Below, piece after piece: positions 35,859 through 36,998 of a DNA stretch of 64,000 bases. The stretch is from Phoronis australis (Eukaryota; Animalia; Phoronida). The translations under genes and the position numbers were made by a program. Position 1 is the first letter of the stretch. The number at the start of each line of letters is the position of its first letter. The notes beneath the pieces are model-generated. The model was not told the DNA's origin and ran no database searches. It saw only the letters and a program-made list of their open reading frames with translations. The stretch covers positions 524,065 to 588,064 of the forward strand of contig NMRA01000160.1 in assembly GCA_002633005.1 (NCBI GenBank), written 5' to 3'.

Positions 35859-35976
35859 CTCGTCAAACTTGGTCTCGGTATCCTTGACAACAACTCGCGC
35901 GGTCTCCACTTCTTTTTCCAGTCCAAGGATTTTCTCTTCGTCCGCAATTGAACGGGACTCCATAGCTTTTCTATTT
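35859..35976 (-). CDS. Tpm: Tropomyosin exon 4 variant D (NRKAMESRSIADEEKILGLEKEVETARVVVKDTETKFDE)
   Basis: 118 nt, phase 2/0, cacgtttAG acceptor, donor GAG|GTCTGT. Clear paralogue of variant C. Confidence 0.88.
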
Positions 35977-36110
35977 CTAAACGTGCAAACGTAAAAGAGC
36001 AGGTGAGATTCGAATGCATGACAGCCACTGAACAGAAATCATGAGATTGAGAAATCTGACACTAATAACATCACCAGGCATCAGGCATGAGAAGACTCCA
36101 TCATCCACAC

Positions 36111-36228
36111 CTCATCAAACTTGGTCTCCGTATCAGAGAGAACAACGCGCGTGGTTTCCAGCTCTTTTTCCAAACCAGCAATTTTGTCCTCCTCTGTGAA
36201 TGACCGAGACTCCATTGCTTTTCTATTT
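36111..36228 (-). CDS. Tpm: Tropomyosin exon 4 variant C (NRKAMESRSFTEEDKIAGLEKELETTRVVLSDTETKFDE)
   Basis: 118 nt, phase 2/0, cccctttAG acceptor, donor GAG|GTGTGG. Confidence 0.88.
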
Positions 36229-36576
36229 CTAAAGGGGGATGGTAATATTTTTAAGAGAATGAAAAAAACCTCAGGGAGTTCCCGGAGATCTCGAGGGAAA
36301 ATAAACACCAGAGCGTAGTCCATCTTCTGTCTACTGGAGAGAAAGTTCAAGCACTAAAAGCAAATGTCTATCTAGCAGCCAACACGCCACCTGGTGGCCA
36401 TAACAACTGAAATGATAAGCGAAAAAGCAACTAATTATATGTCACAGGTTGTAGAGCGTTCTCCGGCACATCTAGATGTTGATCTACAAATCTAATCTTG
36501 GTTAATGACTCTGCAGCCCTCCAGCCAGCCGCAGTCGCATGCACTGGCTACACTGTGCTTATGCATGCAGCTTCAC

Positions 36577-36694
36577 CTCGTCAAATTTTCTGTCGGCATC
36601 TTCAGCTATGAGCCGCGCCTCCTTTAGTTGGTCCTCTAGCGTCTCGCACCGCTCCTCATCTGCAGTGTTGCGGCTCTCTAGAGCCTTGCGCCCT
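36577..36694 (-). CDS. Tpm: Tropomyosin exon 4 variant B, closest to the canonical muscle sequence ([39 protein letters not shown])
   Basis: 118 nt, phase 2/0, ctccacAG acceptor, donor [27 protein letters not shown] motif. Confidence 0.95.
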
Positions 36695-36880
36695 CTGTGG
36701 AGCAAACACACAAACCACACACACAACATTAGTTACAACAACCACGAACAACAACAGTATCAACAACGACAACAATGATGGCAATCCTTTCGCAGTCGCA
36801 AATCTGTCCCAATCAGAAAGGGAAGTGCGAACTGAAAAGAGCACAGCACTCAAGAGAGGGGGTGCCATCGAGTGACCTAC

Positions 36881-36998
36881 CTCATCAAATTTGCGCTCAG
36901 CCTCTGTACGCAACTCAGTGGCCTCATTTAGTGCCGCTTCGAGTGTTTCTATTCTCTCCTCGTCTATAGCTCGTCGATTATCCAGGCTTTTTCTTTGC
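36881..36998 (-). CDS. Tpm: Tropomyosin exon 4 variant A (QRKSLDNRRAIDEERIETLEAALNEATELRTEAERKFDE)
   Basis: 118 nt, phase 2/0, catcAG acceptor with a CTAAC branch point upstream, donor GAG|GTAGGT. Confidence 0.9.

What the first reader, a model, noticed from the sequence alone, without database searches (positions are those of the whole stretch)
35859..36998. Four tandem, mutually exclusive exon-4 paralogues in 1.1 kb
Seen: four 118-nt, phase 2/0, stop-free exons all ending KFDE|GT, separated by 186, 348 and 134 nt. C and D are a more recent pair (shared NRKAMESRS...GLEKE-ET-RVV--DTETKFDE, many synonymous differences, dissimilar flanking introns), which argues for selection and against an assembly artefact. 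Including two copies shifts the frame, so use must be mutually exclusive. Known: this segment (residues ~125-164) covers the flexible mid-region around Asp137, which affects myosin regulation. Variant C has TEEDK where the others keep DEE(R/K). Inference: mid-molecule flexibility or myosin gating is tuned by splicing.
Basis: partly seen in the sequence, partly recalled or inferred. Interest (0 to 1): 0.8.

Follow-up and report, generated by a model that had tools for sequence, protein, structure and literature searches.

The report
Four swappable exons in invertebrate tropomyosin
An invertebrate tropomyosin gene (an actin-binding protein) carries four tandem copies of the exon for the middle of the protein, and RNA reads show each copy spliced in on its own, which likely gives different mid-sections to cytoskeletal and muscle versions; this is a well-supported example of an already known arrangement.

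Summary
Observation confirmed. Four 118-nt AG/GT exons (4A-4D, minus strand) encode tropomyosin residues 126-164. Raw RNA reads from three runs join each copy to exon 3 and to exon 5. No double-inclusion or skipping joint is among the 15 of 18 joints shown. 4C is rare (38 of 1958 upstream joints). 4D ranges from 3% to 46%. 4C/4D dN/dS is 0.13. The share of 4A follows the short first exon and the alternative last exons in all three runs. So 4A is likely the cytoskeletal copy, and 4B/4D the long, muscle-type copies (inferred, three runs). The Asp137 point is weak: 4C's Asp-to-Glu change is conservative and common in arthropod alternative copies. The larger changes lie in the Ala151/155/158 core cluster and at actin contact 142. 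Precedent is close: C. elegans lev-11 has three 118-nt mutually exclusive copies, and a pearl-oyster gene model strings together four. A word search of this scan's notes found no tropomyosin case. Verdict: real, new member of a known kind.

The parts
36881..36998 (-). Exon 4A, divergent copy (Q126, R134, R155); share follows exon 1b and exons 9x/9y
   Evidence: joints 3-4A 269/190/246 and 4A-5 178/147/178 reads in X3/X4/X5
36577..36694 (-). Exon 4B, canonical copy (G126, D137, A151/A155/A158); two UGCAUG motifs 8 and 34 nt downstream
   Evidence: joints 172/166/284 and 108/101/168
36111..36228 (-). Exon 4C, rare copy (N126, E137, A142, T151/L155/T158)
   Evidence: joints 12/17/9 and 10/15/4; dN/dS vs 4D 0.13
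35859..35976 (-). Exon 4D, most variable copy (N126, D137, L142, A151/V155/T158)
   Evidence: joints 14/118/461 and 14/65/318; dominant in X1 contigs; 4D-5-6b in one X2 contig
38315..38448 (-). Exon 3 (134 nt), upstream partner of all four copies
33403..33473 (-). Exon 5 (71 nt), downstream partner of all four copies
34997..35023 (-). 27-nt in-frame micro-exon seen only after 4A; its donor reads TT in this assembly; unexplained
   Evidence: joints 18/14/0 on both sides
30497..30572 (-). Exon 6a, very divergent 76-nt candidate third copy of exon 6
   Evidence: depth 74/71/14 at 30542; no Pfam hit; its joints were not among the rows shown
28589..28664 (-). Exon 6b, alternative exon 6
   Evidence: joints 5-6b 84/140/406 and 6b-7 127/189/439
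27937..28012 (-). Exon 6c, canonical exon 6
   Evidence: joints 5-6c 215/186/298; 24 of 25 aa to Octopus
24590..24652 (-). Exon 7
23493..23562 (-). Exon 8; UGCAUG 8 nt downstream
21801..21883 (-). Alternative last coding exon 9x (to stop codon)
   Evidence: joint 141/101/131
20314..20396 (-). Alternative last coding exon 9y (to stop codon)
   Evidence: joint 108/149/93
19407..19489 (-). Alternative last coding exon 9z, muscle-type C-terminus (label from recall)
   Evidence: loose ends at exon 8: 228/298/742 reads, matched to this place
59586..59699 (-). Exon 1a, coding part (long isoforms)
53742..53867 (-). Exon 2 (long isoforms)
   Evidence: loose ends at exon 3: 187/274/511
50384..51013 (-). 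Candidate alternative first exon with a 210-aa lysine-rich head, like heads in mollusc and annelid tropomyosin models
   Evidence: no reads laid here
47891..48028 (-). Exon 1b, coding part (short isoforms)
   Evidence: loose ends at exon 3: 232/185/217

Best explanation
This is a cluster of four tandem-duplicated copies of tropomyosin exon 4, each spliced singly between exons 3 and 5, which likely lets one gene give separate mid-sections to its short cytoskeletal form (4A) and to two or more long, muscle-type forms (4B, 4D, rarely 4C). Shown: the four copies, their single inclusion, strong differences in use between three RNA runs, and purifying selection on 4C/4D. Inferred: (1) 4A goes with exon 1b and exons 9x/9y (250 aa by exon arithmetic), and 4B/4C/4D go with exons 1a-2 and 9z (284 aa). 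(2) The choice is made by cell-type splicing factors: Rbfox-type UGCAUG motifs would repress 4A and 6a from upstream and activate 4B and 6c from downstream, and nonsense-mediated decay would remove errors. (3) 4D and 4C would change bending and actin affinity mainly by replacing the small Ala155/Ala158 core residues, losing the acidic residue 142 and replacing Gly126, with Asp137 playing a minor part.
For: Joints for all four copies on both sides in three stranded raw-read runs; use differs between runs (chi-square 322, df 6). The share of 4A in upstream joints is 0.58/0.39/0.25, against 0.55/0.40/0.30 for exon 1b and 0.52/0.46/0.23 for 9x+9y; differences are within 0.07. 4C/4D dN/dS 0.13. 5 UGCAUG lie within 60 nt of the 7 alternative exons 4 and 6, against 0.42 expected from the gene's density. 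Residue 155 is Ala in 41 of 43 distinct public exon-4 segments but R, L and V in 4A, 4C and 4D. Residue 142 is D/E in 22 of 26 canonical segments but A and L in 4C and 4D. PMC7589864 (passages): Ala151-Ala155-Ala158 bends the coil and A155T lowers actin affinity 2.5-fold. PMC3384579 (passages): Glu139 and Glu142 contact actin. PMC3342872 (section 31): duplicated tropomyosin exons get assigned to one of two promoter isoforms.
Against: The isoform linkage rests on co-variation across three runs of one study with unknown tissues; no read or contig linked exon 4 to a first or last exon. The 4-6 linkage is loose: 6b exceeds 4D by 0.10-0.22 in all runs, and in X1 the 5-6c contig depth (2513) far exceeds 4A (436). 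The UGCAUG window was chosen after seeing the motifs; the opposite strand also gives 3 hits (the motif is partly palindromic); constitutive exon 8 also has one; none lies within 60 nt of 4C or 4D, so 4D choice is unexplained. Decay could hide double inclusion. No protein-level test was made.
Confidence: 0.7

Rival explanations
1. One reading: the cluster exists mainly to tune flexibility and myosin gating at the Asp137 site within muscle.
For: The exon covers G126, R133 and D137. G126R and D137L change sliding speed and calcium sensitivity in vitro (PMC3848074, part 1 of 2 read). Position 126 differs among the copies (Q, G, N, N). 4B and 4D both appear to be long-isoform copies used in varying ratio.
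Against: D137 is kept in 4A, 4B and 4D. 4C's E137 is conservative, rare (about 2% of joints) and shared with 8 of 17 divergent public segments. Position 126 is not Gly in 16 of 26 canonical public segments. 4A follows the short isoform.
Confidence: 0.2
2. Only 4A, 4B and 4D matter; 4C is a younger duplicate of 4D that is spliced at a low level and is on its way to loss.
For: 4C gives 38 of 1958 upstream and 29 of 1338 downstream joints. Its end branch is longer than 4D's (0.31 vs 0.069).
Against: Synonymous divergence from 4D is about 1.0 with dN 0.14 and no stop or indel. Both of its joints are seen in all three runs. A rare cell type would give the same counts.
Confidence: 0.25
3. Exclusivity is enforced by a built-in RNA mechanism (competing docking/selector pairings or a branch point too close to the upstream copy), not mainly by splicing factors plus decay.
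For: The only strict YURAY match in the 134-nt 4C-4D intron lies 26 nt from 4C's donor, and in the 4B-4C intron 71 nt from 4B's donor. C. elegans lev-11 5a/5c/5b choice is independent of decay.
Against: AG dinucleotides lie between those motifs and the acceptors (intron sequences), unlike typical distant branch points (recalled). 4A and 4B have ordinary motifs at -40 and -39. In 20 duplex tests no docking region paired with several introns; the best z was -3.1, between two neighbouring stretches downstream of 4D. No shared selector repeat was found.
Confidence: 0.2
4. Assembly artefact, uncollapsed haplotypes or dead pseudo-exons.
For: The window holds other signs of imperfect assembly (N-runs; a near-identical tandem block at about 31.7-32.8 kb).
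Against: All four copies are spliced in RNA; pairwise nucleotide identity is only 45-78%; the flanks are unrelated.
Confidence: 0.01

Closest known systems
C. elegans lev-11 tropomyosin exons 5a/5c/5b (PMC4165533, passages and Table 1 rows)
   Same: Homologous mutually exclusive exons of 118 nt (3n+1) in a tropomyosin gene, with introns of 155 and 123 nt between copies, beside alternative promoters, a second exon cluster and alternative last exons. That it is the same exon is inferred from length and position.
   Different: Three copies, not four; a nematode; experimentally shown not to depend on decay, which is untested here.
Mollusc and annelid tropomyosin gene models: Pinctada imbricata FSP39_001980 (P0003), Batillaria attramentaria BaRGS_00021911 (P0002), Paralvinella palmiformis (P0004)
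   Same: These models string together 4, 3 and 2 exon-4-like segments. In the two molluscs, as here, divergent copies lie upstream of the canonical copy and a further copy downstream. They also show alternative exon-6 segments (Pinctada, Batillaria) and a lysine-rich alternative head (Pinctada, Paralvinella).
   Different: They are automatic models; exon boundaries and use were not checked here. None of their copies groups with 4A or with 4C/4D with support. Their downstream copies keep Ala155.
Decapod tropomyosin exons 4a/4b (PMC11791374, passages) and arthropod Tm1-type pairs
   Same: Two alternative copies of exon 4, with 4b in the abundant muscle form. The arthropod alternative copy has E137/D139 like 4C.
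   Different: Two copies in the models seen; no evidence of orthology with 4A, 4C or 4D.
Recurrent tandem exon duplication in bilaterian tropomyosin genes (Irimia et al. 2010, not held; seen only as summarised in PMC3342872 section 31)
   Same: Independent duplication of exons, followed by assignment of copies to the isoforms of two promoters.
   Different: Here at least three copies seem to serve the long isoform, so there is a further split within it (inferred). I could not check whether that paper lists four copies for any lineage.
Vertebrate tropomyosin exon 4 (PMC3384579, passages)
   Same: Same residues 126-164, with R133, D137 and E139.
   Different: Described there as constitutive; vertebrate alternative exons are others (recalled: 2 and 6).

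Membership tests
Tropomyosin (PF00261), exon 4 | Sequence match to the family at residues 126-164, within the conserved nine-exon gene with 134/118/71/76/63/70-nt exons | tested here: met
   4B alone passes Pfam's cut-off (39.5 vs 38.6 bits), the other 39-aa pieces score below it with E 8e-7 to 2e-4
Tandem-duplicated mutually exclusive exons | Adjacent homologous exons of equal length and phase with canonical splice sites | tested here: met
Tandem-duplicated mutually exclusive exons | Each copy is joined to both flanking constitutive exons in RNA | tested here: met
   8 of 8 expected joints in 3 of 3 raw-read runs
Tandem-duplicated mutually exclusive exons | No double inclusion or skipping in steady-state RNA | tested here: met
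   none among 15 of 18 joints shown; the weakest shown rows hold 5 reads; 18-19% of each run was read; joints under 3 reads are not listed
Tandem-duplicated mutually exclusive exons | Exclusivity holds without nonsense-mediated decay | not testable with these tools
   all multi-copy forms carry early stops, so decay could hide them
Tandem-duplicated mutually exclusive exons | Copies kept by purifying selection | tested here: met
   4C vs 4D dN/dS 0.13; for the other pairs pS exceeds pN and dS is over 1.3 or saturated; no orthologous DNA was available
Dscam-type docking/selector clusters | One docking site able to pair with a selector beside each copy | tested here: not met
   single genome, four candidate regions, no cross-species covariation, so a weak negative
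Sterically locked exon pairs (alpha-tropomyosin exons 2/3 type; recalled) | Intron too short, or branch point too near the upstream donor | tested here: inconclusive
   introns of 134-348 nt; motif scan; intervening AGs; no lariat data
Promoter-assigned tropomyosin exon copies (Irimia model) | Each copy is linked to the short or the long isoform | tested here: inconclusive
   shares agree within 0.07 in three runs; no molecule spans the exons

The most novel reading that the evidence does not exclude
4D defines an abundant, lineage-specific muscle tropomyosin that has given up the nearly invariant Ala155 bend and the acidic actin contact at 142. With exon 6b it builds a mechanically distinct thin filament for one muscle type, while 4B serves another. 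The gene would then be a natural four-way experiment on the flexible mid-region that is otherwise studied through myopathy mutants, with a 4A-linked micro-exon as a further, unreported switch.
Probability: 0.3. Interest if true: 0.55.

Novelty: new member of a known kind. Interest (0 to 1): 0.33.

Why it matters
The arrangement is known; the value lies in a fully read-supported four-copy case and in the natural variants it offers. Vertebrate work has tied G126, D137, E139/E142 and the Ala151/155/158 cluster to bending, actin affinity and calcium sensitivity through point mutants. Here one gene swaps these positions in four selected versions on one backbone, so their combined effect could be measured directly. 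It also gives a test of the idea that duplicated tropomyosin exons are assigned to isoforms, and extends it to a split within the long isoform.

Tried and rejected
No whole genome is held for this window, so other tropomyosin genes of this organism could not be counted. Protein searches with single exons found nothing (weak searches with 41-44 aa queries). The HMMER search with 4D gave 2 hits, of which P0001 is an unrelated repeat protein and was left out of the counts. An alignment of mixed exons on P0002 was wrong and was not used. The protein atlas gave only tropomyosin and unnamed clusters. The run search listed no holder on record as RNA (no evidence either way); the raw-read runs came in by species label. 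No docking/selector pairing or shared selector repeat was found. The 39-column tree of 32 selected segments resolves only 4C+4D for the window's copies, so orthology with mollusc or annelid copies is neither shown nor excluded. Summed helix propensity (scale from recall) is slightly less favourable for 4C/4D (17.0, 16.3) than for canonical segments (12.8-16.4), a small difference. X1 contigs lack 4B and 4C, but contigs show presence only. No fold or complex prediction was run: a 39-residue coiled-coil piece would not answer the question. The catch-muscle review (PMC12040844, passages) gave nothing on exon choice. Ten paper searches listed no paper describing a four-copy exon-4 cluster, but the library lacks most subscription papers, including Irimia 2010, and no supplements were opened.

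Full report
Observation. Each is 118 nt, bounded by AG and GT, open in phase 2/0 and ends KFDE; the introns between them are 186, 348 and 134 nt. All four match Pfam Tropomyosin positions 85-122, and 4B aligns to residues 126-164 of vertebrate tropomyosin (PDB 1C1G). As a chance control, a profile built from 23 public exon-4 segments and none of the window's finds these four in the six frames of the window at E 1.5e-17 to 1.1e-10; the next hit is exon 3 at E 0.029. There is no fifth copy.

The gene. The cluster belongs to a 40-kb tropomyosin gene: exons 1a, 2, 1b, 3, 4A-D, 5, three candidate copies of exon 6, 7, 8 and three last exons. Exon arithmetic gives 284 aa for the 1a-2 form and 250 aa for the 1b form. 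Best matches among the 120 proteins listed (of 493 found) are mostly to molluscs and an annelid: exon 5 22/23 to Mytilus, exon 6c 24/25 to Octopus, exon 3 25/44 to Paralvinella; exon 2 matched arthropod models best, at 20/42. The animal is therefore probably a lophotrochozoan; I did not narrow this further.

RNA. Three stranded raw-read runs of one study were laid on the region, 18-19% of each read. All eight expected joints are present in all three (X3/X4/X5). Exon 3 to 4A 269/190/246, 4B 172/166/284, 4C 12/17/9, 4D 14/118/461. To exon 5 from 4A 178/147/178, 4B 108/101/168, 4C 10/15/4, 4D 14/65/318. No joint between two copies and no 3-5 skip is among the 15 rows shown; 3 weaker rows are hidden, the weakest shown hold 5 reads, and joints under 3 reads are not listed. 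Every multi-copy form and the skip form reach an early stop, so decay could hide them; exclusivity is shown for steady-state RNA only. Use differs strongly between runs (chi-square 322, df 6): 4D is 3%, 24% and 46% of upstream joints, and 4C is 38 of 1958 in all. Contigs of a fourth run (X1, RNA by guess) are dominated by 4D (depth 7968 against 436 for 4A). One contig of X2 (labelled as a second organism) carries 4D, 5 and 6b in a row.

Selection. 4C and 4D are 78% identical in DNA and 30 of 39 in protein; their flanks are unrelated (23/60, 20/60). dS is about 1.0, dN 0.14, dN/dS 0.13 with a codon bootstrap of 0.02-0.40. They form the only supported group among the window's copies (100/100) in a 39-column tree of 32 selected segments. 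4B is the canonical copy (29 of 39 matches to the majority of 15 canonical segments; 4A 20, 4D 18, 4C 15).

What the copies are for (inferred). The share of 4A in upstream joints (0.58, 0.39, 0.25) follows the share of exon 1b (0.55, 0.40, 0.30) and of last exons 9x+9y (0.52, 0.46, 0.23) within 0.07. The counts for exons 1b, 2 and 9z are loose-end counts. The simplest reading is that 4A belongs to the short form, and 4B, 4C and 4D to the long form with 9z; calling these cytoskeletal and muscle-type rests on recalled knowledge of tropomyosin genes. This matches the published idea that duplicated tropomyosin exons become assigned to one of two promoter isoforms (PMC3342872, section 31 and passages). 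It rests on three runs of unknown tissue, and no molecule links the exons. The link between exons 4 and 6 is loose: 6b rises with 4D but exceeds it by 0.10-0.22.

How one copy is chosen (inferred). No docking/selector pairing was found. The introns are long enough to splice, 4A and 4B have ordinary branch-like motifs at -40 and -39, and the far-upstream motifs before 4C and 4D are followed by AGs. UGCAUG lies 32 nt upstream of 4A, 8 and 34 nt downstream of 4B, 27 nt upstream of 6a and 9 nt downstream of 6c: 5 observed against 0.42 expected. Rbfox binds this motif with an effect that depends on the side, and acts on Tm1 splicing in fly muscle (PMC8742874, passages); the rule upstream-represses, downstream-activates is recalled. 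Against: the window size was chosen after seeing the motifs, the opposite strand gives 3 hits, exon 8 has one too, and none lies near 4C or 4D.

Protein differences. K128, R133, L144 and F162 are common to all four copies. D137 is kept in 4A, 4B and 4D; 4C has E137/D139, and E137 occurs in 8 of 17 divergent public segments, such as the arthropod alternative copy. Larger changes: residue 155 is Ala in 41 of 43 distinct public segments but Arg, Leu and Val in 4A, 4C and 4D; residue 158 is Thr in 4C and 4D; residue 142 is acidic in 22 of 26 canonical segments but Ala and Leu in 4C and 4D; residue 126 is Gln, Gly, Asn, Asn, though it also varies in public canonical copies. Published mutant work gives these sites weight: the Ala151-155-158 cluster bends the coil and A155T lowers actin affinity 2.5-fold (PMC7589864, passages; PMC6321504, passages); Glu139 and Glu142 contact actin (PMC3384579, passages); G126R and D137L raise sliding speed and calcium sensitivity (PMC3848074, part 1 of 2). 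An effect of exon choice on bending and actin binding is therefore likely but untested.

What is known. C. elegans lev-11 has three verified mutually exclusive 118-nt exons, 5a/5c/5b, with 155 and 123 nt between them (PMC4165533, passages). Decapods have exons 4a/4b (PMC11791374, passages). Among 120 public proteins, 15 contain two exon-4-like segments, one three (Batillaria) and one four (Pinctada); these are automatic models that probably chain alternative exons, and I could not check their DNA. Ten searches of the held library listed no paper on a four-copy cluster, but the key survey (Irimia 2010) is not held and no supplements were opened. The scan's own notes showed nothing near this place and no finding with all the search words; none bore on the reading.

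Verdict. The feature is real and now supported by RNA and by selection. It is a new member of a known kind: recurrent tandem exon duplication in tropomyosin genes. Interest 0.33. The boldest reading left open is that 4D builds a mechanically distinct muscle tropomyosin without the Ala155 bend (probability 0.3, interest 0.55). Unexplained: what selects 4D and 4C, the role of the very divergent exon 6a, and a 27-nt in-frame micro-exon joined only after 4A in two of three runs.

Noticed in passing
window 34997-35023 (-): A 27-nt in-frame segment (9 codons, two Trp, breaks the heptad) is spliced between 4A and exon 5 in 18/14/0 reads, about 9% of 4A messages in X3 and X4. Its acceptor is canonical, its donor reads TT in this assembly, and it overlaps a 22-nt tandem repeat.
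   Followed up: partly
window 27937-30572 (-): A second cluster of exon-6 copies: 6c canonical, 6b like a mollusc alternative exon 6, and 6a so divergent that Pfam misses it, yet covered 74/71/14 deep with one fixed third-position difference.
   Followed up: partly
window 50384-51013 (-): Candidate alternative first exon encoding a 210-aa lysine-rich low-complexity head whose last part resembles heads in mollusc and annelid tropomyosin models; not tested with reads.
   Followed up: partly
window 19407-21883 (-): Three alternative last coding exons, each giving 26 residues after the split codon; all three have read support.
   Followed up: partly
window about 31700-32760: A near-identical tandem block of about 560 nt with a single N near the junction (32198), possibly an uncollapsed haplotype in the assembly (seen).
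   Followed up: no
window 5079-5942 (-): ORF with a complete forkhead domain (PF00250, E 2e-34) downstream of the tropomyosin gene.
   Followed up: no
window 11522-12073 (-): 183-codon open frame with a charged, coiled-coil-like stretch and no convincing Pfam match.
   Followed up: no
window 34535-34761: Small element with 27-nt inverted ends in the intron between 4D and exon 5; reads map on both strands with many variants, so it is probably a dispersed repeat.
   Followed up: no
P0003 (Pinctada imbricata) and P0002 (Batillaria attramentaria): Public gene models chain four and three exon-4-like segments, and alternative exon-5/6 segments, into single proteins; probably mis-annotated mutually exclusive clusters.
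   Followed up: partly
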